Positions 8,955 to 25,196 of a stretch of DNA of 39,062 nucleotides are shown piece after piece. How positions within the stretch are numbered: the first letter of the stretch is position 1; each line of letters begins with the position of its first letter. Made by a program: the position numbers and the translations under genes. The stretch lies in the IMG/VR virus record IMGVR_UViG_3300027820_000018, positions 1 to 39,062 of that record; one strand, given 5' to 3'. Below the pieces are notes generated by a model. The model ran no database searches. It had not been told where the DNA came from and worked only from the letters and a program-made list of their open reading frames with translations. This DNA comes from a virus. Its lineage: Duplodnaviria > Caudoviricetes.

Positions 8955-9005
8955 TAATAACACATCGTTGCGTGAGACCTTCGGCTCACGAACTCGTTTT
9001 TATGT
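8955..9005 (+). repeat. attC-like site A (51 bp; first base of the R' core is T instead of G)
   Basis: TAATAAC-ACATC-GTT(G)CGTGAG(A)CC-TTC-GGCTCACGAAC-TCGTT-TTTATGT: hairpin with two extrahelical bases on the left arm and 5-bp spacers. Confidence 0.75.
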
Positions 9006-9161
9006 TCTGTAATCTTTCTCTGCCGTCAAGTATGGACAGTGATTTATCGACTCTGGTGTATTATTTAAAATAGACTCAGCCCAAAGCCTTGCTTTTTCCT
9101 CGCTAACTCCGTGCAAAACATACTGCTCTATAGCTTTTTCAATCCACTCCATTCTCTTCAC
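9000..9161 (-). CDS. Cassette-like small ORF (53 aa, MKRMEWIEKAIEQYVLHGVSEEKARLWAESILNNTPESINHCPYLTAEKDYRT)
   Basis: Below the ORF-track cutoff; RBS aagagg, GTG start; stop codon lies in the core of site A. Confidence 0.65.
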   Translation of the reverse strand: MKRMEWIEKAIEQYVLHGVSEEKARLWAESILNNTPESINHCPYLTAEKDYRT

Positions 9162-9184
9162 GGTCAACCTCTTTATTTAATCGA

Positions 9185-9245
9185 ACATAACAAAGCGTTA
9201 AATTTAGACGTTCGCAGGCTCACGCCCATTAACGCCGGGTTATAG
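9185..9245 (+). repeat. attC-like site B (61 bp)
   Basis: ACATAAC-AAAGC-GTTAAAT...TAGAC...ATTAAC-GCCGG-GTTATAG; near-identical to the reverse complement of 19728-19789. Confidence 0.8.
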
Positions 9246-9442
9246 TCGCCACATCACGCTTCGCAGCGGCTTAGGCAATGCGCTAGCTTATCTGCGCTAT
9301 AGCAATCACCTCCGGTTAGATGGTGATTCTTCGTCACAGGGTGCTGTGATGTTAGGTATACGCGCCGTGTTAATGTTAAGTAAGACCCACGACAGTCAAG
9401 CATTAACCCCGAAATAAGGGTATCAGGTGGCGCGTATTCGAC

Positions 9443-9557
9443 TGGTGACTGGCTGGGATTCGAACCCGTTATCCAGACTTGCGCATCAGTGGGTTATCAT
9501 CCCTACCGAAATTTATTTGGCGTGATTAAAGCCGTTGCTCAAGTCGTCCAATCACCA
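9443..9557 (-). ncRNA. tRNA-like structured RNA candidate (acceptor-like stem plus T-loop, non-canonical body)
   Basis: Minus strand TGGTGATTGG...GGGTTCGAATCCC-AG-CCAGTCACCA; internal stem GACTTGAGC/GCGCAAGTC. Confidence 0.4.
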
Positions 9558-9966
9558 TGCTAATACGCCCTGCTTTTGGCCGGAGCAGGAACCAGGAACC
9601 CTCTGTCGCCATCGGCGGGCCTACCGACTTTATCCGGGATAGCTGATACCCCTGACTTGCACATTACTGGGTAAGAAAAGAAGGAGCCTAATCTTTAACC
9701 ACGGGGTGCGAACCCGTTTTTCAGTCCGCATTTCAGCGGCGGCATGTGCCAGACCTGATAAATTTAATGGAGTGGCCACTGGTGTGTTTGTGTGGCTTGC
9801 CGCGTCAAAAGGCACTCATAGACGACTATTTTCAGGTATCACGGATTTCTCTAACCTTCAATTTGGTGCGCATCACCACTACGCCCTCACTCCATAAGCA
9901 AATAGTAGCAAAGCCACGGAACGGCGCACCTTGTATTGTGTAAGGAAGTGTCAAGATGCGTAGGCA

Positions 9967-9990
9967 TAAAAAAGCCCGGACGTACCGGGC
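9967..9990 (-). terminator. Rho-independent terminator
   Basis: GCCCGG-TACGT-CCGGGC-TTTTTT on the minus strand, downstream of 10029..10721. Confidence 0.8.
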
Positions 9991-10028
9991 AAAGAGTTAC
10001 GGAGTCACGAAAACCCCAAGGCATGATG

Positions 10029-10721
10029 TCAGTCTTCAGGGTTGCTGGCAAGCTCTTGCGCTCTGATTGCGCTGGCTACGATGTCTTTCATGTCCTGATC
10101 CAGTGTTTTGTGGCCGCGCTCTCCAGGTTGCAACGCCTTCTTTATCAGGTGCTGTAGTGCTGGGTTTTCTACCTTCCACGCTTTCAGCACATCGTAAACA
10201 TCAACCCAGACCCCCGGAGCAATTTCCCGGTGGTACTTGCTTTTCTTTGGCTTGAACGCAACATCACGCGGGTCGTATTCAGGCGGCGGTATGTCGTAAT
10301 GCTCGCCATCGTTGCCGTTCTGCCCGATAGCGTCGGCGCGTTGTTCGGGCCAGTCTTCGGCGCGACATAGCTTAAATCTTTTGCATATCAACATGCCGTC
10401 AATGCCTCTAGCGCCCCAGTCGAATAAAGACGCTTGGACTGTCATCGACCCACCGATAGAATTGCTTAGCTCTATAATGACCATGTCATCCGGCAATACA
10501 GGACACTCCCCGCCGTTGTGGTCTATCCAGTCGTAGAGCGGGCTGAAGTCGATGCCCTTTGTTATTGATGCCGTGTGATCGTTTGTAGCATTTGACAAGA
10601 GCCAACCCTCATTCCAGAACTGCCAGCCCGTACCTTCGAGCTTATAGAATCCGGTCAGCTCGCCAGAATGAGTCGCCCCAACCCGATGCGCAAAAAGCAG
10701 CTGCTCAGTTGTTAGTTTCAT
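10029..10721 (-). CDS. Multi-domain hypothetical phage protein
   Basis: WIDHNGGECPV segment plus a C-terminal VDVYDVLKAW...HLIKKAL.PG.RGHK domain typical of phage proteins. Confidence 0.75.
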   Translation of the reverse strand: MKLTTEQLLFAHRVGATHSGELTGFYKLEGTGWQFWNEGWLLSNATNDHTASITKGIDFSPLYDWIDHNGGECPVLPDDMVIIELSNSIGGSMTVQASLFDWGARGIDGMLICKRFKLCRAEDWPEQRADAIGQNGNDGEHYDIPPPEYDPRDVAFKPKKSKYHREIAPGVWVDVYDVLKAWKVENPALQHLIKKALQPGERGHKTLDQDMKDIVASAIRAQELASNPED

Positions 10722-10926
10722 TTCCGCAATCCTCGTTCAGATAATTCTCGTGCCCTCGCACATGTTCGATTGGCAGGTGCTTTGTAGCCTCATGCAACGC
10801 AACGCCAGCGCAGTACAACTCCTTCGACTTAACCGCAATGCGCTTATCCGTGTCCTGGTCATAGCATGACAGCGTGGTCAGGCCGACCACGAGAAAGCAC
10901 AGGATTATGATTGTTGATGGTTTCAC
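10705..10926 (-). CDS. Small exported/membrane protein (possible lipoprotein)
   Basis: MKPSTIIILCFLVVGLTTLSC signal-like N-terminus. Confidence 0.55.
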   Translation of the reverse strand: MKPSTIIILCFLVVGLTTLSCYDQDTDKRIAVKSKELYCAGVALHEATKHLPIEHVRGHENYLNEDCGNETNN

Positions 10927-11210
10927 TTGCTCTGCTCCTTAACAATCCTCACAACCGCGTCGTAAAACGCGCTTTCTTCACCTTCTTTGACGCCTTTCAT
11001 ATACTCAATAAGCGCCGCGTCCATAGCATCCAAATCCGCCTCTGTTGCGTTATCGTGGAATACTGACATCAAAGCCATTGGGTCATCGTTCAACGCACAC
11101 TGAACCGCGTGCTCAGCGTCCGCCGTTGTCTGTTCGTCCTTCTGCATTGCGCGTTCCTCATCGTCAGTGATTCTCATGTGTTCCTGCCAGTCGTTTCCGT
11201 TGCGTGCCAT
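10923..11210 (-). CDS. Hypothetical acidic protein
   Basis: 95 aa; RBS aagggga; first gene after the promoter at 11254-11282. Confidence 0.65.
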   Translation of the reverse strand: MARNGNDWQEHMRITDDEERAMQKDEQTTADAEHAVQCALNDDPMALMSVFHDNATEADLDAMDAALIEYMKGVKEGEESAFYDAVVRIVKEQSK

Positions 11211-11253
11211 GCCATCCCCTTCCGGCTATGCCGTTGTTTGTTGGTGTGGGTAC

Positions 11254-11282
11254 ATAATGGGGTATAACCGGCTCAGTGTGAA
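11254..11282 (-). promoter_or_regulatory. Sigma70-like promoter with an AGCCGG motif in the spacer
   Basis: TTCACA-ctgagccggttataccc(17)-CATTAT; a second, inverted motif copy at about 11300-11307. Confidence 0.6.
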
Positions 11283-11324
11283 ATATCAATTATTCATTAG
11301 AGCCGGTGGCGTTATAGCTTTTGG

Positions 11325-11627
11325 TTATAGGTCTTCTTCTTTGACGAAAACCCCGTTACGCATTTCACCCTTGCGGTCTTTGATTTCGTTGTATGCCAGC
11401 TCTACCGCCTGCTGAAAATCAATTCCGAGTTGCGCGCAAAGAATGGTGAGAACCACAACAACGTCACCAACGCTATCTATGATGACTTCAGGCTTATTCT
11501 TTGCTATGCCGCCTGCTAGCTCGCCAGCCTCTTCAATCAACTTCAGCATTTGCGCCTGTGGCGTGGAGCCGTTAACCAGATTTCTGGCTTCTGCCCATTC
11601 TTCGATTTTGCGAATTGTCTCAATCAT
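11325..11627 (-). CDS. MazG-like nucleotide pyrophosphohydrolase
   Basis: WAEARNL, KLIEEAGEL, DSVGDVVV, AYNEIKDRKG...GVFVKE. Confidence 0.9.
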   Translation of the reverse strand: MIETIRKIEEWAEARNLVNGSTPQAQMLKLIEEAGELAGGIAKNKPEVIIDSVGDVVVVLTILCAQLGIDFQQAVELAYNEIKDRKGEMRNGVFVKEEDL

Positions 11628-11899
11628 TCGCCCTTCTCCTCCTGTTGCATCTTGTAAATCTTGCCGTTAATCCAGTTATTAAGCTGTAGAGCAAACATCG
11701 CTGTAATAAACCCTGCCGCGTAACTTCCTGACGGATCAGTTGTAGAAACAAGGCCGCCTGATGTTACAAGCTCGACAATCACAACGATGATGGAAGCAGG
11801 CACTACACAAGCCAGCACAGACAGGAAAAACACAACAAAATCAACAGCGTAGCCAGATAGCCCCTCTGGTTCGTATGAGTCTTTCTTGATGAGCCTCAT
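11624..11899 (-). CDS. Two-TM membrane protein
   Basis: Two hydrophobic stretches; coupled to neighbours. Confidence 0.6.
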   Translation of the reverse strand: MRLIKKDSYEPEGLSGYAVDFVVFFLSVLACVVPASIIVVIVELVTSGGLVSTTDPSGSYAAGFITAMFALQLNNWINGKIYKMQQEEKGE

Positions 11900-12123
11900 T
11901 ACTTAACCCTCCATACTCGCAGGCCGTCATCTACCAGCCTGCACGTGAATTTCTTTTCGGTTAGCTTGTTTCTGATTGATGCGTAACCTCTGACTGAGCA
12001 GTGGCTGCCACTACTCCATGGCACCATAAAAGAATCGCCAACCTCCAATTCGTCTATTGGGTATTTATATTCAGTGGTGCGTCCCTCTATAGGCACATTC
12101 TTCTCTATCGTGAATTTGCTCAT
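11899..12123 (-). CDS. Small putative DNA-binding phage protein
   Basis: IEKNVPI...KYPIDELEVGDSFMV...GLRVWRVK pattern. Confidence 0.75.
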   Translation of the reverse strand: MSKFTIEKNVPIEGRTTEYKYPIDELEVGDSFMVPWSSGSHCSVRGYASIRNKLTEKKFTCRLVDDGLRVWRVK

Positions 12124-12272
12124 TTATTCCTCACTCTATTATTCTGCGCCAGCTGCTCTGGCTCGTTTGGTTTAATCGGCACGCTTGGACTACACACGCA
12201 CCGCTTTTGGTTAATGCTGCTGAGAGTCACTAGGTTGTGACTCCCGCAGGTTGGGCATTTATCAGTAGACAT
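12120..12272 (-). CDS. Small zinc-ribbon protein (50 aa, MSTDKCPTCGSHNLVTLSSINQKRCVC...)
   Basis: Below cutoff; fills the gap between SSB and the next gene with overlaps; CxxC...CxC. Confidence 0.55.
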   Translation of the reverse strand: MSTDKCPTCGSHNLVTLSSINQKRCVCSPSVPIKPNEPEQLAQNNRVRNK

Positions 12273-12753
12273 TGCTTGGCACGCGAGCAAACGGAATATC
12301 GTCGTTAAACCCGCCCGTGCTGTCGCTATGCTGAGGCGCTTGCTGTCGTGCTACATTGCCCGGCTGCGCTGGCTGATAACCAGGCGGTGGCGCTGGTCGC
12401 TGTTGTTGCGGAGCCTGCTGCGCTGGCTGCTGGTTGCCGCCATCAGAAGCGAACTTGATAGAATCAATGCGGCCCGTCAGCTTGAAGCCTTGAGACTGGT
12501 CATTCTTTGTGAACGTCTCAATATGTAAGTCAGATGCGGTGAAGAAAATCTGCTTACCCTTCAACAGGTACGGTGCCAGCGCCTCGGCTTGCTTGCCCCA
12601 TAGTGTCAGGTCATACCACTGCGTAGGCTTGTTCCCGTCCTGCCCCTTACGGCCATAATCAACAGCCACGGCAATATTGCAAACCGCCGTGCCGTCTTGT
12701 GTGTATCTCAGTTCTGTGTCACGGCCCAAACGGCCAAAGTCTGATACAGGCAT
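12262..12753 (-). CDS. ssb: Single-stranded DNA-binding protein
   Basis: GRLGRDTELRYT, LWGKQAE, Gln/Pro linker, DDIPF near the C-terminus. Confidence 0.95.
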   Translation of the reverse strand: MPVSDFGRLGRDTELRYTQDGTAVCNIAVAVDYGRKGQDGNKPTQWYDLTLWGKQAEALAPYLLKGKQIFFTASDLHIETFTKNDQSQGFKLTGRIDSIKFASDGGNQQPAQQAPQQQRPAPPPGYQPAQPGNVARQQAPQHSDSTGGFNDDIPFARVPSNVY

Positions 12754-13424
12754 TACAATTCCTCTTTCTGTTTAATGCCATCCCATGCAATGCCGAATGA
12801 TTCCAGCAATACACGGTCTAGCTGATTAACGAACGCCATAACGCGGCGCTCTAGGTTTTCGATAAACTTATCATCACGCTCAATGCGTTGGATGAATAAC
12901 CGGCCATCACCGTCTATGCGCGGGTCAAAGCTGATGAAGTCACACCACCGGCGGCCATTAATCCAGAGATTTCCCTGCACCTGTGCAATGTGTTCCTTCG
13001 GCATTTCGCCAGCCACTACGGTGCGAACGTGGTTCACAGAGTTGAACGGGCACTTGATTTCAATCATTCCGTCATCGTCCACCAGTCCGTCCGGGCTTGC
13101 GCCGATTTTCCGCGACTCGTGCAGGAAAAACCCGGTTTCCGTCACGTTGTTATCCGTCATTATCTCATATTCGAGACGGGCCAGAGGTTCGTATTGGTGG
13201 CCCCAGTCAGTAGCCGCAGAAGAAAACGACGGCGCTTCATCCGTTAGAATCATGCTCACAAGCTCGTATAAGTACGTTTCAGCCGTTTGCGATAGCTTTC
13301 CGGACTCTTTATCCGCTTTGCTCTTTGGCTCTGTCAGAACGTCTTTAAAGCGGCTGCCGGACACAATGCCAATGCGAGAGCGGAGCCATTCAGCGCCGCC
13401 CTGCTCAAGTTGCAATTCAATCAT
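12753..13424 (-). CDS. YqaJ/lambda-exonuclease family nuclease
   Basis: QGGAEWL, WGHQYEP, GASPDGL, IEIKCP, QVQGNLW, WCDFISFDPR. Confidence 0.93.
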   Translation of the reverse strand: MIELQLEQGGAEWLRSRIGIVSGSRFKDVLTEPKSKADKESGKLSQTAETYLYELVSMILTDEAPSFSSAATDWGHQYEPLARLEYEIMTDNNVTETGFFLHESRKIGASPDGLVDDDGMIEIKCPFNSVNHVRTVVAGEMPKEHIAQVQGNLWINGRRWCDFISFDPRIDGDGRLFIQRIERDDKFIENLERRVMAFVNQLDRVLLESFGIAWDGIKQKEEL

Positions 13425-14121
13425 TCTTAGCCGCCTTTTTCTTGAGCATTGAAATAACTGACTGCGCGTCTTTCTTCAGAAGCTGGTTAAACGCTTCAAT
13501 CTGGCAATTAGCCGCGCCGCAAATCCACGCCATAACCTTCTCACGGTCAGAGCTGGTCTCCTGAATCAGGTTCTCAATCTGCAACACTTGGTCAACCGTC
13601 GCCCATTCCTGCATGGCCTGACCGGCTAGACGGGCGTCTGAGTCCTGATCAGCTGTAACGATACCCATTGCCCCGGTGAATGAATATCGGCGCAGGTAGG
13701 TGATTGTAGAGCCGATGGCCTGCACTGAGTTCTTACTGCCTGACGTGTCTGCCGTTGCGGTTACGGTTGTGCGCTCTGAGTGGCCGGATAGGTGAGTGAT
13801 AACACAAGTCACCGTGATGTTTTTCTCATCCTGATTCTGTTCAAAGCGATAAGACAGACCGCAATCAGTCATTGTGCCTTTAACTTGCGCAATGATGTCT
13901 TCAAGCGGCGCGTATTTGTAGTTGTGACCCTGTTTCAATGAAACGATAGCCGGACAGTTATTCTGAAACCGAGCCATTGCGCCGATAAAATCCGCCTTCG
14001 CATTGCGGTCTGCAATCTGAGTTTGCATTGTCAGCATACGCTCAAGGACGCCAATATCCCCGGATTCCATAGCCTTTGCTATGAGCTGGTTTGTGTCGAT
14101 TGTTGCCAGTTGATTACTCAT
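13417..14121 (-). CDS. ERF-family single-strand annealing protein
   Basis: YKYAPLEDI, HLSGHSE, QAIGSTITYLRRY, DQDSDA. Confidence 0.9.
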   Translation of the reverse strand: MSNQLATIDTNQLIAKAMESGDIGVLERMLTMQTQIADRNAKADFIGAMARFQNNCPAIVSLKQGHNYKYAPLEDIIAQVKGTMTDCGLSYRFEQNQDEKNITVTCVITHLSGHSERTTVTATADTSGSKNSVQAIGSTITYLRRYSFTGAMGIVTADQDSDARLAGQAMQEWATVDQVLQIENLIQETSSDREKVMAWICGAANCQIEAFNQLLKKDAQSVISMLKKKAAKND

Positions 14122-14334
14122 ATCAATTCCCCTTATTAGTCAGCTCAGTATATATAACCGGCTCACAGTGTCGCGGTGTTAATCGTAAAGAATCGTAAAG
14201 CGAATAAATGGAGCTAGTGCTAGCTACCCTTATTGCTATCTAGGTGGCTTTACACTTCTTTACACTTCTATCCTAGCAATGACCGGCTCAGTTGGTAATA
14301 TGAACTCATCAAACAACGACGCGGAGAAAGACAA
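14122..14334. promoter_or_regulatory. Divergent early control region
   Basis: Leftward GCGACA-16-TATACT and rightward TAATAT -10, each with ACCGGCTCA next to it; tandem 10-mers at 14181-14200 and 14248-14267; central palindrome AGCTAG-TG-CTAGCT. Confidence 0.6.
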
Positions 14335-14535
14335 ATGAACAAAGTAATCGTAACCACGAGCGACTTCTTCACTGGCGAAATCGTAAAACGCGAAATCTGC
14401 GCAAGCAACGCAACAATGTACGCACCGACAGTTACTGACGCGCTTATCGAAAGAAACCTTAATGAATGGATAACAAACCGCGCCGAGCCTCAACACGGAA
14501 CATCCTTCAACCTCGTGTCGTGGGAATTCATTTGA
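14335..14535 (+). CDS. Hypothetical protein
   Basis: RBS ggag; first rightward gene. Confidence 0.65.
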   Translation: MNKVIVTTSDFFTGEIVKREICASNATMYAPTVTDALIERNLNEWITNRAEPQHGTSFNLVSWEFI

Positions 14536-14735
14536 ATCAGGGAAAATGCTGCGACAGTCCAGCCGTGAAGGACTTGTCGCAAGGGCTTGGCAGTGAGCGG
14601 CATCTTTACTGCTCAAAGTGCAAGGCGCACACATGGCGCGGCAAGTTCTACAGCCAGAAAGACTGGGAAGCATGGATAAACGGAGAAGATGATGAAAGTA
14701 ACGCTTTTTTACTGTCACAAGACAGGCAAGTTTGA
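14532..14735 (+). CDS. Small Cys/His protein, paralogue 1
   Basis: CC...KDLSQGLG..RHLYC..CKAHTWRG; TTG start overlapping the upstream stop is inferred. Confidence 0.6.
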   Translation: MNQGKCCDSPAVKDLSQGLGSERHLYCSKCKAHTWRGKFYSQKDWEAWINGEDDESNAFLLSQDRQV

Positions 14736-14820
14736 AAACCTAGAAACAGGGAGCCTTTACAGCGTTTCATCGGTTCAGGCATTGCGGGCCGCTGGGTTCG
14801 ATGTGGATATTGAATACTAA
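14689..14820 (+). CDS. Small hypothetical protein (43 aa, MMKVTLFYCHKTGKFEN...)
   Basis: RBS ggag; below cutoff. Confidence 0.5.
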   Translation: MMKVTLFYCHKTGKFENLETGSLYSVSSVQALRAAGFDVDIEY

Positions 14821-14858
14821 CACCAACCAGCCCGCTCCGGAGGGCAAGGGAGAAAGCT

Positions 14859-15065
14859 ATGAAACTTACAAAAGCCGAACTGAAAACGCTGAAAGAAATT
14901 TCCAGCTACACTCGCGCTCCGACAGCGACACGAAGAGGATACAGTGAACTGTGGACTCAAAAGACAAACGAAAAGCTATCAAGTAAAGGGCTTGTTAAGT
15001 TTATGAATGGAAGCGTAGTTATCACAAATGAAGGGATTACGGCGCTGGAGGAAAATGCAAAATGA
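14859..15065 (+). CDS. Small winged-helix-like protein
   Basis: MKLTKAELKTL...KLSSKGLV...ITNEGITAL. Confidence 0.6.
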   Translation: MKLTKAELKTLKEISSYTRAPTATRRGYSELWTQKTNEKLSSKGLVKFMNGSVVITNEGITALEENAK

Positions 15066-15430
15066 ACAACAAAGACTTACCGGCTATGCCTATTCCATTG
15101 ACAGATGGGCAGGGCTTTAGCCATCACACTGAGGCGGACGGCCTAACCAAGCGTGAATACTTCGCAGCCCACGCGCCAGATATGCCGGAATGGTACAGAA
15201 TACACAACCGTTGCAGCATCCTGATGCCAGAGGATGTGCTTTCCGATGTTGAGCTGACCGACTATCAGGAGTATCGGAGGGGAAACTACGGTCACGAGCG
15301 ATACCATGAAGGCGAGAAAGCATCAATTCACTACAATGAGGAGTGCCGGAAGCACAATTACAAGGAAGCAATGCGGGTTTTTGCTGAATGGCGCTGGCAC
15401 TACGCAGACATGATGCTGGAGGGTGAGTGA
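15062..15430 (+). CDS. Conserved hypothetical phage protein
   Basis: PAMP...GLTKREYFAAHA...YADMML family pattern. Confidence 0.75.
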   Translation: MNNKDLPAMPIPLTDGQGFSHHTEADGLTKREYFAAHAPDMPEWYRIHNRCSILMPEDVLSDVELTDYQEYRRGNYGHERYHEGEKASIHYNEECRKHNYKEAMRVFAEWRWHYADMMLEGE

Positions 15431-15825
15431 TGAGAGAGGTTAAGTTTAGAGCGTGGAGCAAATCAAGTGAGAGATTCCACGAATGGAAAGATATTCAACA
15501 TCTTCACATTCATACGGTATTCAATATGTGCAGTGACACTCTGGTGATTGAGCAATACACCGGCCTGAAAGACTGTGACGGCGTTGAGATTTACGAGGGG
15601 GATATTGTTAGGTCGGAGCACTTTATTGATCTTGACGGAGAGCAGCACTATGTCCGACACACTTGTGAGTGGTCAAATAAGTATTCAGGTTGGTATTTTA
15701 GAAATAATGCCGAATCGTTTGATGGAGACGGGGGGCTTCAAGCATTTGTAATGATGAAGTTTTTGAACGCGCGGAAAATTAAAATCATCGGCAACATCCA
15801 TCAGAACCCGGAGCTAATCAAATGA
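15427..15825 (+). CDS. YopX-family protein
   Basis: REVKFRAW, QYTGLKDCDGVEIYEGDIV, IIGNIHQNPEL. Confidence 0.92.
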   Translation: MMREVKFRAWSKSSERFHEWKDIQHLHIHTVFNMCSDTLVIEQYTGLKDCDGVEIYEGDIVRSEHFIDLDGEQHYVRHTCEWSNKYSGWYFRNNAESFDGDGGLQAFVMMKFLNARKIKIIGNIHQNPELIK

Positions 15826-16013
15826 CCAACGCAGCAAAGAACACGCAGAACTACCGCAAGCGCCTGCCTGAAAAGGGCCTATGCCGTGCAAATCCGATTG
15901 TGCCTACCGAGCGCAGAACCGAGCTAAACGAGGTTGCCCGATATATGCGGGACAATCCCGGTATTGAACTAATGGAAATCGCCCGGAGGATGGCGGAGGA
16001 GTGGGATAAGTGA
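15822..16013 (+). CDS. Small putative DNA-binding (RHH-like) protein
   Basis: NAAKNTQNYRKRLPEKGL pattern. Confidence 0.5.
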   Translation: MTNAAKNTQNYRKRLPEKGLCRANPIVPTERRTELNEVARYMRDNPGIELMEIARRMAEEWDK

Positions 16014-16192
16014 ATCAGGCTCTGATAGACCACTGCAACAGCGTGGGCAAAGACAAGCACGGCCTTACCGACTGCCGAAACTGCCCTGCCGGTGTTCGTG
16101 CGGAGTGTTTCAAGCAGGTGCCACTGACGTATCAGGCAATAGCAGAGAAAGAGGAACGGATGAATGAACTGCTGCAACAATCCGCAGATTAA
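16010..16192 (+). CDS. Small Cys-rich hypothetical protein
   Basis: 60 aa; C..CP....C; coupled start. Confidence 0.5.
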   Translation: MNQALIDHCNSVGKDKHGLTDCRNCPAGVRAECFKQVPLTYQAIAEKEERMNELLQQSAD

Positions 16193-16313
16193 AGACCTGT
16201 CGCAAGGTCTGGGCGAACTCCGGCACCTTTACTGTGCGATCTGTAAGGCGCATACATGGCGCGGAGTGTTCTACACACGGCAGGAGTGGGATAACTGGAT
16301 AAATGAGGGCTAG
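16164..16313 (+). CDS. Small Cys/His protein, paralogue 2 (49 aa)
   Basis: MNCCNNPQIKDLSQGLGELRHLYCAICKAHTWRGVFYTRQEWDNWINEG; clearly homologous to 14532..14735. Confidence 0.7.
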   Translation: MNCCNNPQIKDLSQGLGELRHLYCAICKAHTWRGVFYTRQEWDNWINEG

Positions 16314-16315
16314 AA

Positions 16316-16649
16316 ATGATTACAGGCGGCTTCGGCTACACTCTGGACATCGAAAGCGGCCTAGTACGCCGCTGGTATATCGACCGTAACGGCGTTAAAC
16401 GCTGGGTACACAATAAGAAGGAAGTTAAATGAAAATCGCAATCTACATAGACACCGACAACCAGAAGGACATCGAAGAAGCAAAGCGTGTGATTGCTGAA
16501 CTGGAGAAGGGGAAGAAGAGCAAATGACAAGAAACGCTGTAGCTGGATTCCTTGCGGGTGCTGCCGTTGCCGCCTCTCATAGCGGTATGCAATCACTGGC
16601 TTATCCTGCTGCTATTCTGGCTATAGTGATTCTGTTTTCCGATCACTAA
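16316..16649 (+). CDS. Three coupled mini-ORFs: 16316-16432 (38 aa), 16429-16527 (32 aa), 16524-16649 (41 aa, hydrophobic)
   Basis: ATGA overlaps and purine-rich RBSs. Confidence 0.5.
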
Positions 16650-16653
16650 CCCA

Positions 16654-16681
16654 TTGCCCGCCGTAGCTGGCGTGGTATAAT
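16654..16681 (+). promoter_or_regulatory. Promoter for the replication genes
   Basis: TTGCCC-16-TATAAT with extended -10 TG. Confidence 0.6.
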
Positions 16682-16794
16682 CAATGTGCGGCTAGGGGTA
16701 TACATCAGACCGGCCAGTCTGTCCCTGAAGCCTTCCGTCCTTGGGCGTGCCGCATATCATTTCAAAGGGCGCACAATCTAAAGGACACATACCA

Positions 16795-17757
16795 ATGAGC
16801 ATGCTACTCATGGTTGCCGCTATGAAAGCTAAGATAGGCAACCCGACCCGCAAGTTAGTTCTTATCAAACTGGCAGACAATGCAAACGATGAAGGAATTT
16901 GCTGGCCTTCTTACCGCCATGTTGCTGACCACTGCGAAGTAGACCGAAAGACGGTTATCCGCCATGTTCAGTGGCTGGAAGATAATAAATTCCTTACCAA
17001 GCAGTACCGAAAAGACGACGAGCGCGGCAATAAATCAAACGTCTACCGCGTTGATATAGCTGGTGGCGTTGCGTACCTAGGGTTACAGAATGCCCACCCT
17101 AGTACCACAGAGTCACCAGCCCCTAGTACCACAGAGTCACCCAGAACCAGTAACTCTTTTGAACCTTCCAGTGAACCAGTCACTTCTATGTCGCCTACCG
17201 GCTCCGCGTGTTCTGTTTGTGGTGGTAGTGCTTTTATCAGTCAGATGAACCTATCAACACAGCGCAGAGAGATACATCACTGCCACCACTGCAACGGCAC
17301 AGGCAAAGAACCAACCTGTAACGCTGGCTTACCAGTTCCAACCGTCAAGGAATCCTTGACAGTTGAACAACCGCCAAAGGCTGATAAACCGCTAAACGTA
17401 CCGTTTGACGACTTCTGGAACCTGTACAACAAAAAAGTGGGCCGGAAGAAATCAGAGGCCAAGTGGAAGCGCCTAAGCAACAAAGACCGGGCGTCAATCA
17501 TGGAACACCTGCCGAACTACATCCGCAACACTCCTGATGTTCAGTACCGGAAGAACCCGGAAACCTACCTGAACAACGAAAGCTGGAATGATGAGCTTCC
17601 GAACATGGGTAAACCTAAGCGCCCTGACTACCCAGAGAACCAAGGCGTTGACAAATCTATACACACCAAACAGATGACTGGTTTGGCGTCTGAGCTAACA
17701 TCAGAGCAACGAAAAGCGGCGTCAGACCGTATCAGAAAGATGATGGAGAAGGAATAA
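16795..17757 (+). CDS. Replication initiator (N-terminal HTH) with an internal CxxC/CxxCxGxG insert
   Basis: KLVLIKLADNANDEGICWPS; C-terminal FDDFWNLY...NPETYLNNESWNDE; directly upstream of DnaB. Confidence 0.88.
   Translation: MSMLLMVAAMKAKIGNPTRKLVLIKLADNANDEGICWPSYRHVADHCEVDRKTVIRHVQWLEDNKFLTKQYRKDDERGNKSNVYRVDIAGGVAYLGLQNAHPSTTESPAPSTTESPRTSNSFEPSSEPVTSMSPTGSACSVCGGSAFISQMNLSTQRREIHHCHHCNGTGKEPTCNAGLPVPTVKESLTVEQPPKADKPLNVPFDDFWNLYNKKVGRKKSEAKWKRLSNKDRASIMEHLPNYIRNTPDVQYRKNPETYLNNESWNDELPNMGKPKRPDYPENQGVDKSIHTKQMTGLASELTSEQRKAASDRIRKMMEKE
17097..17141 (+). repeat. Two 21-bp direct repeats (iteron-like; probable origin)
   Basis: CCCTAGTACCACAGAGTCACC at 17097 and 17121, inside the initiator gene as in lambdoid origins. 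Confidence 0.7.
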
Positions 17758-19082
17758 TGCTTTACTCACTGGAAGCAGAGCAGAGCGTACTGGGTGCGCT
17801 GATGCTGGAAGAAACGGTTTATGACCAGATACTGGAGACAGGAATAGCCCCGGGTGATTTCTTCAAACCTGAGCATCAGGCCATTGCTGAATCAATCTTT
17901 GCACTTGCTGATAACGGTCAGTCTGTAGATATGATTACCGTAGTCGAGCGTCTGGAAGAAACGCGGGAAATTGAAAATGTTGGTGGTGCTGCGTATGTGT
18001 CGCACCTGACTGACGTTGCGCTTTCGATTGATAACGCTAAGGCCTACGCGAAAATCATCACGGAGCGCAGCCGGTCGCGTCAGTTTAAAACGATGGGCCT
18101 GAATGTCTCAGAGCTGGCTGACGAACGTACAGCGCCTTCTGAGATAGAGGACTACATAGCGCAGGAGGTTGCGCGGATTTCATCAGGCGCGAAGAAAAAC
18201 AACAGTCTGTCGTCTGCTGAGGCGGCAAAAGCTGTCATTGATGAGCTAGCGAGCGGAGAAGTAACACAGATTTACACCAGCGGCCTGACTGACCTTGACC
18301 GCCTATGGTATCCAGAACCCGGGCGGCTTCATGTAATCGCCGGGCGCCCGAAGATGGGCAAAAGTTCGCTGGCTCAGATGTTCCTAGAGGCAAACGCTCT
18401 GAAAGGCATCCCGGGCTATAATGCAACTTTGGAAATGCCAGCAAAGGAGATGGCAAAGCGACACATTGCTAGTCTTGGGCGCATGGATAGAGCTTTTTTT
18501 AAGCAACTCGACAACCACCCCGGGGCCGATGAGCAATACGGAAAGCTGTCAGCCGGTACTAAGATATTTAAAGACCTGCCAATACAGATTGATTTTTGCC
18601 CGGGTGTGCGAGTATCTGAGATTGTAAACCGTGCCCGCACATGGCTGCGAAAGCAGGAGCGATACAGAGACAAAGGTGAAGGGCTGCTGGTGGTTGACCA
18701 CTTGGGCCTGATTAGCCTCCCGGGTAAAGGTAACGCCGTTGAAGAAATTGGGGATATTACCACGCGCCTGAAAAACCTAGCAGGCGAGCTGAATATTCCT
18801 GTAATCCTTCTTTGTCAGTTAAACAGGGGATTGGAGCAACGACCAGATAAACGGCCCGTGACAAGCGACCTGCGCGGCTCTGGACGCATTGAAGAGGACG
18901 CTGACACTATCACGTTTGTTTATCAGGACAGTGTTTACCATGAAGATTCACCAGATAAAGGTGTTGCCGAACTGATTACAAGCGCAAACCGTAACGGGGA
19001 ATCAGGAACTGTCCGGGTGTCAGCAAACCTGCGTTCTAGCCGTTTTGATAACCTGCAATCCGCATACGACTATCAAGATTGA
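17757..19082 (+). CDS. dnaB: DnaB-like replicative helicase
   Basis: EAEQSVLGALM, GRPKMGKS Walker A, VDHL, QLNR, DLRGSGRIEEDAD. Confidence 0.95.
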   Translation: MLYSLEAEQSVLGALMLEETVYDQILETGIAPGDFFKPEHQAIAESIFALADNGQSVDMITVVERLEETREIENVGGAAYVSHLTDVALSIDNAKAYAKIITERSRSRQFKTMGLNVSELADERTAPSEIEDYIAQEVARISSGAKKNNSLSSAEAAKAVIDELASGEVTQIYTSGLTDLDRLWYPEPGRLHVIAGRPKMGKSSLAQMFLEANALKGIPGYNATLEMPAKEMAKRHIASLGRMDRAFFKQLDNHPGADEQYGKLSAGTKIFKDLPIQIDFCPGVRVSEIVNRARTWLRKQERYRDKGEGLLVVDHLGLISLPGKGNAVEEIGDITTRLKNLAGELNIPVILLCQLNRGLEQRPDKRPVTSDLRGSGRIEEDADTITFVYQDSVYHEDSPDKGVAELITSANRNGESGTVRVSANLRSSRFDNLQSAYDYQD

Positions 19083-19091
19083 GAGGACGAT

Positions 19092-19415
19092 ATGTTAAAG
19101 CTATTCAAAAGAGAGAAAGGCGCTGAACTGACTGTTAATGATTCAGTGAAGACAGTTCGATACTCAGTAAGCGATGAGTCTATACAGAATATTCTGGAGA
19201 TGATTCACGAGTTTCAGAGCGTTTACGATGGCGACACCTTCGGCGGATGCAACTTCAGGGATAGAGAGGTCTCACAGATGTCAGATTATCTGATGGGTAT
19301 AGCTGCGACACTGAGAGACCCGAGAGAGCTGGAGGCTATAGCTAGTTTTCTAAACAGGGTTAATTCCAATCTTTCAATGTATATCGAAAGGACTGAGGTT
19401 GAGGGTGTTGAATGA
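19092..19415 (+). CDS. Hypothetical protein
   Basis: RBS gagga; 107 aa. Confidence 0.65.
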   Translation: MLKLFKREKGAELTVNDSVKTVRYSVSDESIQNILEMIHEFQSVYDGDTFGGCNFRDREVSQMSDYLMGIAATLRDPRELEAIASFLNRVNSNLSMYIERTEVEGVE

Positions 19416-19663
19416 AACCGCACCAGCTAATGACAGGCGACAACCCGCACCACTGGATAACCAGAAAGCACGAGCTGATGGCGTCCGGACAGTGCTGTTT
19501 CGTCGCTGGGCGTAGGTTCCGAGACTGGGCTTACTACGATACAACAGAACGGCAAGCGCGGTGTCTTGGTCACTGGCACAAGGCAATGCGGATTGTAAAC
19601 ATTCAGCGCCTACGCCATCGCGGCAACCGGAACCGCTGGGGATTCTTTGATAGGTATTACTAA
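19412..19663 (+). CDS. Hypothetical basic protein
   Basis: ATGA coupling; 83 aa. Confidence 0.5.
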   Translation: MKPHQLMTGDNPHHWITRKHELMASGQCCFVAGRRFRDWAYYDTTERQARCLGHWHKAMRIVNIQRLRHRGNRNRWGFFDRYY

Positions 19664-19727
19664 TCAGGTGTAGAAAATCGGTAGGAAGAACCAATTAGCG
19701 GGATTCTGGCTGGTTGGTATGATTGGA

Positions 19728-19789
19728 GAATAACCCGGCGTTAATGGGCGAGAACCTGCGAACGTCACCGATTAAACGCTTTGTTATGC
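19728..19789 (-). repeat. attC-like site 1 (62 bp)
   Basis: Minus strand GCATAAC-AAAGC-GTT(T)AAT...GTGAC...ATTAAC-GCCGG-GTTATTC. Confidence 0.8.
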
Positions 19790-19807
19790 CATTACTGAGG
19801 ATTTGAA

Positions 19808-20134
19808 ATGGAAATGGAAATTGAAAAGCAGCGATTGGAAGACAGAAGCGTCAATTATGTACAGGCGCTCATACAGACAGAGAGTGATTGCGACCCATCT
19901 ATTGGCGAGTATTCCTTGAGCATTACGGGCTTTATTGGGAGTCTTGATTTATCCAGTGGCGGCGGAACAGACGATATTTCGCTGATCAAAGATGCAATCG
20001 AAAATCATGTTGATTTTACGAGTCTGCCGCCGGAAGGCTGGACTGAAGTACTGCTAAAAGAATCTGGCGAATGGGAAGATTCTTTTTGGCATAAATACTA
20101 TGAGATTGCGAGCGTAGTAATGAATGCGGTATAA
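19808..20134 (+). CDS. Cassette-like ORF 1, acidic hypothetical protein (108 aa)
   Basis: Fills the space between sites 1 and 2; ends GTA TAA C within the core of site 2. Confidence 0.75.
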   Translation: MEMEIEKQRLEDRSVNYVQALIQTESDCDPSIGEYSLSITGFIGSLDLSSGGGTDDISLIKDAIENHVDFTSLPPEGWTEVLLKESGEWEDSFWHKYYEIASVVMNAV

Positions 20135-20197
20135 CCTTGCCATAAGCGGCAAGAGAGCGCAGCGAACGCTGTCCGATTTTTAATGGCGTTGTTATAC
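20129..20197 (-). repeat. attC-like site 2 (69 bp)
   Basis: Minus strand GTATAAC-AACGC-CAT(T)AA...CGGAC...TTCGCTGCGCTC...CCGCTTATG-GCAAG-GTTATAC. Confidence 0.82.
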
Positions 20198-20222
20198 GCC
20201 GACTAACTACAGGTGACAGATT

Positions 20223-20441
20223 ATGAGTATTGAAATTAAGAAGTACCGAAAAAAACAAGAGCAGCCTATGTTCCCTTGGTTTCCAGGTTTTGATATGGGA
20301 GGAGTCTCTGTTTCGGATGCGGATAAACAAAACGGCAGCCCAAAGCCGGGGGACATGATTGCAATTAACCCTAGCAACCATGCCGATCAATGGTTAGTTG
20401 CTGAAAAGTTCTTTCGGGATAATTACGTTGAGAGCGTATAA
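20223..20441 (+). CDS. Cassette-like ORF 2, conserved small phage protein (72 aa)
   Basis: GSPKPGDMIAINPSNHADQWLVAEKFFRDNY; ends GTA TAA C within the core of site 3. Confidence 0.8.
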   Translation: MSIEIKKYRKKQEQPMFPWFPGFDMGGVSVSDADKQNGSPKPGDMIAINPSNHADQWLVAEKFFRDNYVESV

Positions 20442-20495
20442 CCCAGAGCTTTGCTGCCGAAGCGCAGCGAGGTCTGAAACAGTGAATTGTTATAC
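20436..20495 (-). repeat. attC-like site 3 (60 bp)
   Basis: Minus strand GTATAAC-AATTC-ACTGTTTCAGACCTCGCTGCGCTTCGGCAGCAAAGC-TCTGG-GTTATAC. Confidence 0.78.
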
Positions 20496-20510
20496 GAAAG
20501 AGAGGCACCG

Positions 20511-20702
20511 ATGAAGATGAGGCACAAAGACAGTGGTAAATATATTGCAATGAAGCCCGAATTAGTCAAAGAGGGAGCGGATCACCCTTGGGTTTTGGTT
20601 GATAGCGAAGCGGAGGCAACGATAGACCCGGGCTGGATCGGTGAGGATTACACAATGGTGATGCTTTCTGTTTTGCCACGCGGGCAATACGAGTGCGTAT
20701 AA
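20511..20702 (+). CDS. Cassette-like ORF 3, hypothetical protein (63 aa)
   Basis: RBS agagg before the ATG at 20511; ends GTA TAA C within the core of site 4. Confidence 0.7.
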   Translation: MKMRHKDSGKYIAMKPELVKEGADHPWVLVDSEAEATIDPGWIGEDYTMVMLSVLPRGQYECV

Positions 20703-20745
20703 CGCCGCACACACGGGCTATGTCCCGTGCTGGCGTGTGTTATTA
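20697..20745 (-). repeat. attC-like site 4 (49 bp)
   Basis: Minus strand TAATAAC-ACACG-CCA(G)CACGGG-ACATAG-CCCGTGTG-TGCGGC-GTTATAC. Confidence 0.72.
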
Positions 20746-20760
20746 CAGAGAGGATAGGGT

Positions 20761-21159
20761 ATGGAAGAGATAAAAAAATTACGGTTTGGACTAGGCTTTC
20801 AGGTTGAAACCGATAAAGGCCCGGTTGATTTGTACAGCGTCAACGCCGATGAAGATGTATCCGGCACATACGTCCAGTCTTCTGACTACGACGAACTACT
20901 CAGAGAACGCAACGAACTGGCTGCACAGGTGGAGCGGCTGCGGGGTGCTGCAAACGCACTGCTAATGAATAGAATGGGGATGGATGAGTGGTATGCGCTA
21001 GAGTCAGCACTAAAAGAAACCCCGGCTCAGTCGCTAGAGGCGGTTAAGCGGGAGTTAAGGCGCAATACGCTTGATTATGTTGCGCACGCCGTTAGATATG
21101 AGTTTGAAGGGCCATTCTCACCGGATGCGTTTGATGATTTTATAGAGTCTATGTCGTGA
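20761..21159 (+). CDS. Hypothetical protein with a coiled coil (Ead/Ea22-like region gene)
   Basis: YVQSSDYDELLRERNELAAQVERLR...TPAQSL. Confidence 0.7.
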   Translation: MEEIKKLRFGLGFQVETDKGPVDLYSVNADEDVSGTYVQSSDYDELLRERNELAAQVERLRGAANALLMNRMGMDEWYALESALKETPAQSLEAVKRELRRNTLDYVAHAVRYEFEGPFSPDAFDDFIESMS

Positions 21160-22710: not shown

Positions 22711-22739
22711 TTCACTCACATGAGCCGGCCTGTTATCCT
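22711..22739 (+). promoter_or_regulatory. Promoter with an AGCCGG motif, upstream of the methyltransferase
   Basis: TTCACT-cacatgagccggcctgt(17)-TATCCT. Confidence 0.6.
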
Positions 22740-22767
22740 GTGCTTAAACAATCATTACGGAGAATGT

Positions 22768-23499
22768 ATGAATGAGTTGGCTCTTTTCGCGGGCGCTGGT
22801 GGAGGATTGCTCGCAAGTGAATTGCTCGGATGGCGAACAGTGTGCGCAGTTGAGCGTGAAGCCTACGCAGCACAAGTTCTGGCGCAACGACAGAACGATG
22901 GATTGCTCCCGCCTTTCCCGATTTGGTCTGACGTGTGCAGTTTTGACGGAAAGCCGTGGCGAGGAATTATTGATGTCATATCTGGAGGGTTTCCGTGCCA
23001 AGACATCAGCCCCGCCAGAACAAACAACGGAGGTGAGGCAAAAGGAATTGCCGGAAAAAAATCAGGGTTATGGAAAGAAAACCTCAGAATCATTGATGAA
23101 GTCAGGCCAGCTAGAGCTTTTTCAGAAAACTCATCCTGGCTCACAAGGAGAGGGCTTAACGTTGTCATTCAAGACCTTGCCGAGATCGGGTATGACTGTG
23201 CATGGACAACTATTGGCGCAGCAGGATTCGGAGCTGAGCACATACGAGAGAGGGTATGGATACTTGCCTACGCCAACGGCACACAACGCAAAGGAGGGTG
23301 CTTATCCAGCGGAATACACCAGGAATACACCAACTCTAGCAACGCACGCTGGGGGAAAGATAAACCCGGAGTGGACAGAGTGGCTGATGGGATGGTCAAT
23401 AGGGTGGACAGACTTAAAACCATTGGAAATGGGCAGGTTCCAATCGTGGCGGCAGCAGCATACAAGTATCTTGAATCGGTTATATCAAAAATAGAATAA
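22768..23499 (+). CDS. DNA cytosine-5 methyltransferase, main subunit (motifs I-VIII and X)
   Basis: LFAGAGG (I), GGFPCQDIS (IV), FSENS (VI), HIRERVWILA (VIII), RLKTIGNGQVP (X); RBS ggag. Confidence 0.92.
   Translation: MNELALFAGAGGGLLASELLGWRTVCAVEREAYAAQVLAQRQNDGLLPPFPIWSDVCSFDGKPWRGIIDVISGGFPCQDISPARTNNGGEAKGIAGKKSGLWKENLRIIDEVRPARAFSENSSWLTRRGLNVVIQDLAEIGYDCAWTTIGAAGFGAEHIRERVWILAYANGTQRKGGCLSSGIHQEYTNSSNARWGKDKPGVDRVADGMVNRVDRLKTIGNGQVPIVAAAAYKYLESVISKIE
22772..23494 (+). CDS. Nested +1-frame ORF, probable second methyltransferase subunit (TRD and motif IX)
   Basis: 240 codons open within the MTase gene; LPTPTA and INPEWTEWLMGWSIGWTD resemble TRD and motif IX; true start uncertain. Confidence 0.72.
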   Translation: MSWLFSRALVEDCSQVNCSDGEQCAQLSVKPTQHKFWRNDRTMDCSRLSRFGLTCAVLTESRGEELLMSYLEGFRAKTSAPPEQTTEVRQKELPEKNQGYGKKTSESLMKSGQLELFQKTHPGSQGEGLTLSFKTLPRSGMTVHGQLLAQQDSELSTYERGYGYLPTPTAHNAKEGAYPAEYTRNTPTLATHAGGKINPEWTEWLMGWSIGWTDLKPLEMGRFQSWRQQHTSILNRLYQK

Positions 23500-23528: not shown

Positions 23529-23557
23529 TTCACACTAAGCCGGTCAGGTCGTATTCT
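23529..23557 (+). promoter_or_regulatory. Promoter with an AGCCGG motif
   Basis: TTCACA-ctaagccggtcaggtcg(17)-TATTCT. Confidence 0.62.
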
Positions 23558-24968: not shown

Positions 24969-25196
24969 ATGGAGCTGACCAGTAGACAAAAAGATGTTTT
25001 TGCATGGATATGCAGCTACATTGATAAGAATGGGTTTTCTCCAAGCCGGGCAGAGATAGCGTCAGGGTTTGGCTTTCATCCAAATGCAGCTCAGAATCAT
25101 GTTGAGGCTCTTGAAAGAAAAGGGTTCATTCGGGTAGCCCCTGGCATTTCAAGGGGAATAGTTGTTGTAGGCGACCGCTATTGCCTGGACAAATGA
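24969..25196 (+). CDS. Stand-alone LexA-type DNA-binding domain
   Basis: LTSRQ...GFSPSRAEIASGFGF.PNAAQNHVEALERKGFI...PGISRGI; no peptidase domain. Confidence 0.88.
   Translation: MELTSRQKDVFAWICSYIDKNGFSPSRAEIASGFGFHPNAAQNHVEALERKGFIRVAPGISRGIVVVGDRYCLDK

What the first reader, a model, noticed from the sequence alone, without database searches (positions are those of the whole stretch)
8955..20745. All six attC-like sites are inverted relative to their ORFs
Seen: the asymmetric attC hallmarks (AAC-AAAGC/AATTC/AACGC spacer, extra base in the L'' arm, conserved GAC after it) read correctly only on the strand opposite the genes, in both arrays. Established: in ordinary integrons the ORF is co-oriented with the attC top strand, and the bottom strand recombines best when it is the lagging-strand template. 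Inference: here the recombinogenic bottom strand is the coding strand. If replication is bidirectional from the iterons at about 17.1 kb, both arrays have it on the lagging-strand template. This suggests a phage-specific cassette class built with reversed polarity, which would be silent from a host Pc promoter.
Basis: inference. Interest (0 to 1): 0.8.

Follow-up and report, generated by a model that had tools for sequence, protein, structure and literature searches.

The report
Backwards integron cassettes in a phage
This marine phage keeps four small genes between integron-type recombination hairpins that face the opposite way to those in bacterial integrons, and related phages swap such gene units at the matching cut point, so phages likely borrow the host's integron enzyme to shuffle their own accessory genes.

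Summary
Observation confirmed. The window is a complete P22-like phage with no integrase. It has five intact attC-like sites and one decayed one (GTT core changed to TTT), in two arrays bounding four ORFs. Models trained on bacterial integron sites (134 of 135 held-out sites oriented correctly) put the top strand opposite the ORFs at all five intact sites; the sixth leans the same way. Related phage arrays are inverted in 33 of 43 intervals (1 co-oriented), bacterial ones in 5 of 88. Shared units between related phages mostly end at the antisense G|TT crossover, and cleanly swapped units carry the site upstream of the gene; two cases break this rule. The published Pseudoalteromonas phage PH101 sites, which IntI1 recombines best on the bottom strand, are also inverted against the annotated genes. 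So the layout has a precedent, unremarked in the text I read. The lagging-strand argument is geometrically right but untested: GC skew follows gene direction, not the iterons. The recombinase is inferred (host IntI). This scan already noted such arrays on other DNA (66 word-matched findings, at least 65 genomes). New variant of phage attC clusters; interest 0.55.

The parts
8955..9005 (+). attC-like site F, top strand +, R' core decayed (GTT to TTT), predicted unable to pair its core
9000..9158 (-). cassette ORF, 52 aa from GTG (ORF finder: 9000-9167), unknown function; its stop codon lies in the R' core of site F
   Evidence: (4 proteins incl. itself)
9185..9245 (+). attC-like site E, top strand +, 88% like site A
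12753..14121 (-). phage exonuclease and Erf-like annealing protein (possible integrase-independent route of exchange)
16741..19082 (+). O-like replication initiator and DnaB-like helicase
17097..17141 (+). two exact 21-nt direct repeats (24-nt period) inside the initiator gene; candidate iterons
19715..19723 (+). extended -10-like motif (TG-N-TATGAT) just upstream of site A; seen by eye, not listed by the promoter scan
   Evidence: sequence; similar hexamers precede two first sites in L117; absent
19728..19789 (-). attC-like site A, top strand -
19808..20134 (+). cassette ORF, 108 aa, conserved phage protein of unknown function; TAA in the R' core of site B
20129..20197 (-). attC-like site B, top strand -
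20223..20441 (+). cassette ORF, 72 aa, widespread phage family (363 viral stretches), unknown function; TAA in the R' core of site C
20436..20495 (-). attC-like site C, top strand -
20511..20702 (+). cassette ORF, 63 aa from ATG (ORF finder start 20487), no family hit, no homologue search run; TAA in the R' core of site D
20697..20745 (-). attC-like site D, short (49 nt), top strand -
20761..21159 (+). ORF downstream of site D; probably travels with D, but no closing site was found after it
   Evidence: loose end at 20699 in run X7

Best explanation
These are genuine attC-type sites forming inverted-polarity cassettes, each unit being a site plus the phage gene downstream of it and ending at the gene's TAA|C, and they are likely excised and inserted by a host integron integrase acting on the coding (bottom) strand. 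Shown: site anatomy, inverted orientation, absence of an integrase in the phage, unit boundaries in relatives, and complementarity of the two ends of each cassette. Inferred: the enzyme is host IntI supplied in trans; genes are read through from phage promoters, so no Pc is needed; the inversion lets genes stay co-directional with transcription and forks while putting the recombinogenic strand on the lagging-strand template. New units may arise because a stop codon followed by C (TAAC) is a GTTA secondary site on the other strand, so a site placed in front of a phage gene could capture it.
For: Orientation: (63 of 63 reference sites by structure alone). L-box covariation across 28 phage sites: 6 of 6 pairs with two-sided changes, 84% of cells paired; slid controls of the whole structure pair 30-41% against 82% (the structure was set by me). 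Circular-cassette signature: the three bases outside the core match the cassette's other end (2.67 of 3) better than the site's own end (1.60), better in 29 and worse in 3 of 42 intervals; bacterial values are 2.79 vs 1.59, 61 and 5 of 85. Breakpoints: of 52 alignment ends not at a contig edge, 18 lie within 10 nt of an antisense G|TT crossover and 1 within 10 nt of the other core. Clean units: L003/L115 (241 nt, 98%) and L113/L128 (257 nt, 100%) run from G|TT to G|TT, and L105 vs L106 is a filled/empty pair cut at TAA|C. In run X7, three contigs join the window at 20699, keeping site D with the downstream gene. PH101: the published bottom strands lie on the strand of the annotated CDSs, and Qi et al. 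report that IntI1 recombines them, bottom better than top. Cargo is ordinary phage genes: 1 of 79 loci of the 72-aa family and 1 of 12 of the 108-aa family (plus one degenerate case by eye) sit in arrays, all inverted.
Against: No host is identified and no recombination was measured for these sites. Two cases keep an ORF with both cores but neither site body (L105/L107; the window's left cassette vs L220), which one-core recombination does not explain. Runs X5 and X6 lack the whole left array including both sites, which is not a cassette excision. Site F is dead at its core, and site C pairs its core better on the top strand (0.69) than the bottom (0.45). The exact A/E motif was found in 0 of 185,579 bacterial species genomes. 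The comparison loci were picked with motifs from this phage and some share a contig or ancestry, so counts are not independent events. Orientation counts use a longest-ORF rule.
Confidence: 0.68

Rival explanations
1. Same cassettes and polarity, but the enzyme is not IntI: another host or helper-phage tyrosine recombinase acts on the folded sites.
For: No IntI in this phage or in 7 related viral records (the only tyrosine recombinases are lambda-type). The phage sites differ from bacterial ones just before the core: G in 69% of 55 vs C in 97% of 134. An earlier scan note (e1-5628842) reports Xer-type enzymes in Bacteroidota phages (not tested here).
Against: Site geometry is that of IntI substrates. 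The nearest references are Vibrio and Shewanella integron sites (27-28 of 33 arm positions for A, B and E). Inverted PH101 sites are IntI1 substrates.
Confidence: 0.13
2. The hairpins work mainly in the mRNA (processing or pausing signals between early genes), and genes are exchanged by Erf/exonuclease recombination at shared site sequence.
For: The coding strand folds slightly more stably at all six sites (site F was folded with ends one base off). The phage encodes Erf and an exonuclease. Two swaps replace both site bodies. The whole left array is absent in some relatives.
Against: Breakpoints sit at one core even when the neighbouring sites are unrelated. End-to-end complementarity of cassettes is as strong as in integrons. 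The invariant AAC/GTT and the extra-base geometry have no reason in an RNA signal. No Rfam family matches.
Confidence: 0.1
3. The arrays are relics of past cassette capture and are no longer shuffled in this phage.
For: Site F has lost its core. Scores are below typical bacterial sites. The near-identical contig L001 (99.85%) aligns without a break across the right array. No joint at a cassette boundary of the right array is among those listed (75 more joints not shown).
Against: Five of six sites keep intact cores with predicted core pairing of 0.45-0.93 on the bottom strand, against a bacterial median of 0.82. Units 98-100% identical occur in different arrays of related phages, which means recent movement in the family.
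Confidence: 0.09

Closest known systems
CALINs (attC clusters lacking an integrase) in phage genomes: Qi et al. 2023, PMC9892861 (phages TJE1, PH101, P12002L)
   Same: attC arrays in a phage with no intI. PH101's four sites are top-strand + while the three annotated CDSs between them are on -, and the two tested bottom strands are on the CDS strand. P12002L attC1's published bottom strand is also on the CDS strand.
   Different: The text I read calls TJE1 and PH101 typical and does not mention ORF inversion. TJE1 is co-oriented. One unannotated co-oriented ORF also lies in the PH101 array. Here there are two arrays, every bounded ORF is inverted, and relatives show whole-unit swaps.
Sedentary chromosomal and mobile integron cassette arrays (IntI, attI, Pc, attC)
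   Same: R''/L''/L'/R' boxes, extra bases on the 5' arm of the top strand, crossover at G|TT, complementary cassette ends. Nearest sites are Vibrio (VCR-type) and Shewanella.
   Different: No intI, attI or Pc. ORFs are antisense (33 of 43 intervals) rather than co-oriented (67 of 88). Cargo is ordinary phage genes. If forks are bidirectional the bottom strand is on the lagging template, whereas most sedentary integrons have it on the leading template (Loot et al. 2017, PMC5371416, passages).
'Reverse' or inverted-integrase integrons (Treponema type; Cury et al., bioRxiv 10.1101/030866, passages)
   Same: An orientation exception in the integron system.
   Different: There the integrase gene is flipped relative to the array. 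Here no integrase exists, and the ORFs are flipped relative to attC.

Membership tests
attC site | R''/R' cores (AAC...GTT) closing a 45-140-nt imperfect hairpin | tested here: met
   5 of 6 sites; site F has TTT
attC site | L''/L' pairing with extra bases on one arm, unpaired central spacer | tested here: met
attC site | Covariance-model match to bona fide attC | tested here: met
   own model from 36 bacterial sites: 25.3, 23.5, 21.6, 17.3, 15.8 bits; site F not hit. IntegronFinder's model was not available.
attC site | Recombined by IntI as a folded bottom strand | not testable with these tools
   indirect only: PH101 sites
Gene cassette | Unit moves between G|TT crossovers; ends complementary as in the circular form | tested here: met
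   in related phages, with two exceptions; no precise single-cassette deletion seen for this phage itself
Canonical integron cassette | ORF co-oriented with the attC top strand (usual, not absolute) | tested here: not met
   4 of 4 intervals inverted
Complete integron | intI gene | tested here: not met
   record 100% complete with terminal repeats
Complete integron | attI and Pc | tested here: inconclusive
   no attI model run; both arrays begin on the top strand with a short hairpin site rather than an attI; promoter scan at chance level (17 vs 15.2)
CALIN | At least two neighbouring attC sites, no integrase | tested here: met
   right array 4 sites; left array 1 intact plus 1 decayed

The most novel reading that the evidence does not exclude
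Phages run their own inverted branch of the integron system: they mint cassettes from ordinary phage genes by using stop codons (TAAC) as crossover sites, orient them so that host IntI shuffles them at a high rate on the lagging strand during phage replication, and so feed silent new cassettes into bacterial integrons. This would be a testable route for the unsolved origin of cassettes.
Probability: 0.25. Interest if true: 0.85.

Novelty: new variant of a known kind. Interest (0 to 1): 0.55.

Why it matters
Integron cassettes are thought of as bacterial, with gene and site co-oriented so that Pc can drive them. Arrays built from phage genes with the opposite polarity imply that cassettes are made and shuffled inside phage genomes, probably with a borrowed host enzyme. 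That bears on how cassettes arise and on how phages vary their early accessory genes. The sites are short, and the standard strand-specific assay applies directly.

Tried and rejected
No Rfam match and no tRNA or tmRNA. Strict RYYYAAC/GTTRRRY and strict box scans missed the window's sites, because the cores are xxATAAC/GTTATxx and the stems are imperfect. blastn of the right array or of site A against cultured phages and plasmids gave only chance hits or none. The inverted repeat at 11262-11317 was considered as a seventh site and rejected (scores -1.3/-34); it carries a GAGCCGG motif shared with promoter-like elements. GC skew as an origin locator was rejected. The 375-aa recombinase inside related arrays was considered as the enzyme and rejected: it has a lambda arm-binding domain and no IntI similarity. 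A model of the phage sites over 121 genomes of a marine gammaproteobacterial order hit 13 genomes; the arrays there gave 33 co-oriented, 6 inverted and 7 unclear intervals (overlapping loci), so no bacterial reservoir of inverted arrays was found in those searched. Four other published phage CALIN records gave no hit at E<=0.05. Host not identified: the nearest cultured capsids are from Vibrio and Pseudomonas phages at 41-43%. No RNA holder listed. Eight literature searches listed no paper describing inverted phage cassettes as a class. I recall, unverified, that the term 'PAIRs' (phage arrays of inverted integron-like recombination sites) has been used for vibriophages; one search did not retrieve it, and the library lacks most subscription papers.
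Full report
Context. The window is a complete 38.9-kb phage record with a 127-nt terminal repeat. It has P22-like head and ejection genes, an O-like initiator, a DnaB-like helicase, Erf, an exonuclease and SSB. It has no IntI and no tyrosine recombinase. The runs that hold it fully are marine sediment. The nearest cultured capsids are from Vibrio and Pseudomonas phages at 41-43%, so a marine gammaproteobacterial host is an inference.

Calibration. I drew 80 intI loci from bacterial genomes and used 61 of them plus two fetched integrons (L009, L011); the 19 left out mostly had little DNA on the cassette side. A strand-blind box model found 63 sites in 24 of these 63 loci, and in 63 of 63 the arm with the extra bases defined a top strand opposite intI. 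A profile trained leave-one-locus-out oriented 134 of 135 sites correctly, with 0 hits in 133,791 shuffled bases. A covariance model was built from 36 short bacterial sites.

Observation. Both models place the top strand opposite the genes at 9185-9245, 19728-19789, 20129-20197, 20436-20495 and 20697-20745, and these are the model's five best hits in the window. Markov resamples gave 8 hits in 25, against 5 in the real window. The sixth site (8955-9005) has the extra base and GAC on the same antisense strand but has lost its GTT core. It is a decayed relative of an intact site in L105; one control shows no strand preference for it. Three of the four bounded ORFs have homologues on the called strand (31, 44 and 4 proteins, the last two counts including the window's own). 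The fourth was not searched. Each ORF's TAA lies in the crossover core of the next site.

Is it general? In 17 loci of this site family including the window (found with motifs or proteins from the window, so not an unbiased sample) 33 of 43 intervals are inverted, 1 co-oriented and 9 unclear. In bacterial integrons 67 of 88 are co-oriented, 5 inverted and 16 unclear. In nine other viral loci 9 of 16 are inverted, 4 co-oriented and 3 unclear (longest-ORF rule). Across 28 phage sites the L box covaries with the extra base on the antisense arm.

Are the units mobile, and with which polarity? Cassette ends are complementary to each other rather than to their own site, as in integrons. This shows passage through a circle but not polarity. 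Polarity comes from breakpoints. Among 28 high-identity alignments between loci, 52 ends are not at a contig edge; 18 lie within 10 nt of an antisense G|TT and 1 within 10 nt of the other core; most of the rest are far from any site (eight site coordinates were added by eye, and events are not independent). L003/L115 and L113/L128 share whole units from G|TT to G|TT; in L003/L115, inspected at the junctions, the unit keeps the site at the gene's 5' end, and L105 has one more unit than L106, inserted at TAA|C. For this phage, three contigs of run X7 join at 20699, keeping site D and what follows, and a 78% homologue of the 108-aa gene keeps a degenerate A-like site upstream (by eye). Against the rule: L105/L107 and the window's left cassette versus L220 share the ORF and both cores but neither site body. 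Runs X5 and X6 lack the whole left array and carry a lone GTT there. That fits seeding at a secondary site followed by trimming, or block transfer by homologous recombination. I cannot tell these apart.

Cargo. None of the cassette ORFs hits PHROGs, Pfam or NCBIfam. The 72-aa family occurs in 363 viral stretches; 1 of the 79 examined lies in an array, inverted. The 108-aa family lies in a clear array in 1 of 12 loci, inverted. So cassettes hold ordinary phage genes, which points to cassette formation in phage genomes (inference).

Enzyme. No IntI was found in seven related viral records. One has two lambda-type integrases, each with a small upstream ORF that looks excisionase-like by position, carried as a unit between inverted sites. 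Host IntI in trans is therefore inferred, not shown.

Replication claim. With forks leaving 17.1 kb both ways, the + strand is the lagging template on the right and the - strand on the left; these are the coding, bottom strands. Loot et al. 2017 (PMC5371416; abstract and passages) show that this orientation favours excision and that most sedentary integrons have the other one. But the origin rests on two repeats in the initiator gene. GC skew is positive on both sides of them (0.087 and 0.129) and flips with gene direction. The claim is conditional. Its useful form is that inverting the sites is the only way to keep genes co-directional with the fork and have the bottom strand on the lagging template.

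Literature. Qi et al. 2023 (PMC9892861): I read the abstract, introduction, methods, start of results, section 3.4 and part 1 of 2 of the supplement; figures and the Dryad annotation file were not visible and may show ORF direction. They report 17 phage CALINs and IntI1 recombination of five of six tested sites, bottom strand above top. I located their sites: TJE1 is co-oriented; PH101 attC1 and attC2 and P12002L attC1 have the bottom strand on the annotated coding strand; P12002L attC2 is co-oriented. P12002L attC1 is the one that failed in their assay. PH101 gene strand rests on GenBank annotation, since none of those ORFs hits PHROGs. Nivina et al. 2016 (PMC5027507, passages) support the use of extra-base position as the strand marker and note that some sites recombine on the top strand at low rates, which could explain the two exceptions. 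Passages only were read of 10.1101/2024.07.02.601686, 10.1101/030866 and PMC13676570; none describes this layout. Eight searches listed no paper on inverted phage cassettes as a class. I recall an unverified prior name for such arrays, so novelty in print is uncertain. This scan's own notes hold 66 findings with these words in at least 65 genomes; these are unchecked AI notes, not independent support.

Verdict. The feature is real and well supported: an integrase-less, inverted-polarity attC cassette system, a variant of known phage CALINs. The enzyme, the replication link and silence under Pc remain untested. Interest 0.55.

Noticed in passing
L125 774-2111; L128 2821-3948; L105 1362-2489: A lambda-type integrase with a small upstream ORF lies as one unit between two inverted attC-like sites, twice in one contig: a possible lysogeny module packaged as a cassette.
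   Followed up: partly
L253 1501-1994 (G083): An inverted cassette with a phage-like site (GG before the core, 9-nt complementary ends) sits inside a bacterial cassette array; possible capture from a phage.
   Followed up: partly
L256 4265-4312 vs L115 943-991 and L128 4198-4246: A closely similar short site occurs co-oriented in a bacterial array and inverted in phage arrays.
   Followed up: no
NC_029094 75919-77987 (L219): The published PH101 CALIN is inverted relative to its annotated genes; two of its four sites are near-identical, with duplicated flanks.
   Followed up: yes
window 11254-11282 (-), 14147-14174 (-), about 22713-22742 (+), 23529-23557 (+): Promoter-like elements share a GAGCCGG/AAGCCGG motif in the spacer, a candidate regulator site; an inverted pair of it lies at 11262-11317.
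   Followed up: no
window 14544-14680 and 16167-16303: 137-nt direct repeat, 71% identical, in the early region.
   Followed up: no
window 9250-10000: Mostly non-coding 750 nt with several hairpins and a tRNA T-arm-like stretch near 9445-9470 on the - strand; no ARAGORN or Rfam hit; relatives skip blocks within it.
   Followed up: partly
window 24969-25196: Stand-alone LexA-type DNA-binding domain protein (PF01726); the phage has no integrase, so its lifestyle is unclear.
   Followed up: no
window 22772-23494: DNA methyltransferase-like gene between two promoter-like elements.
   Followed up: no
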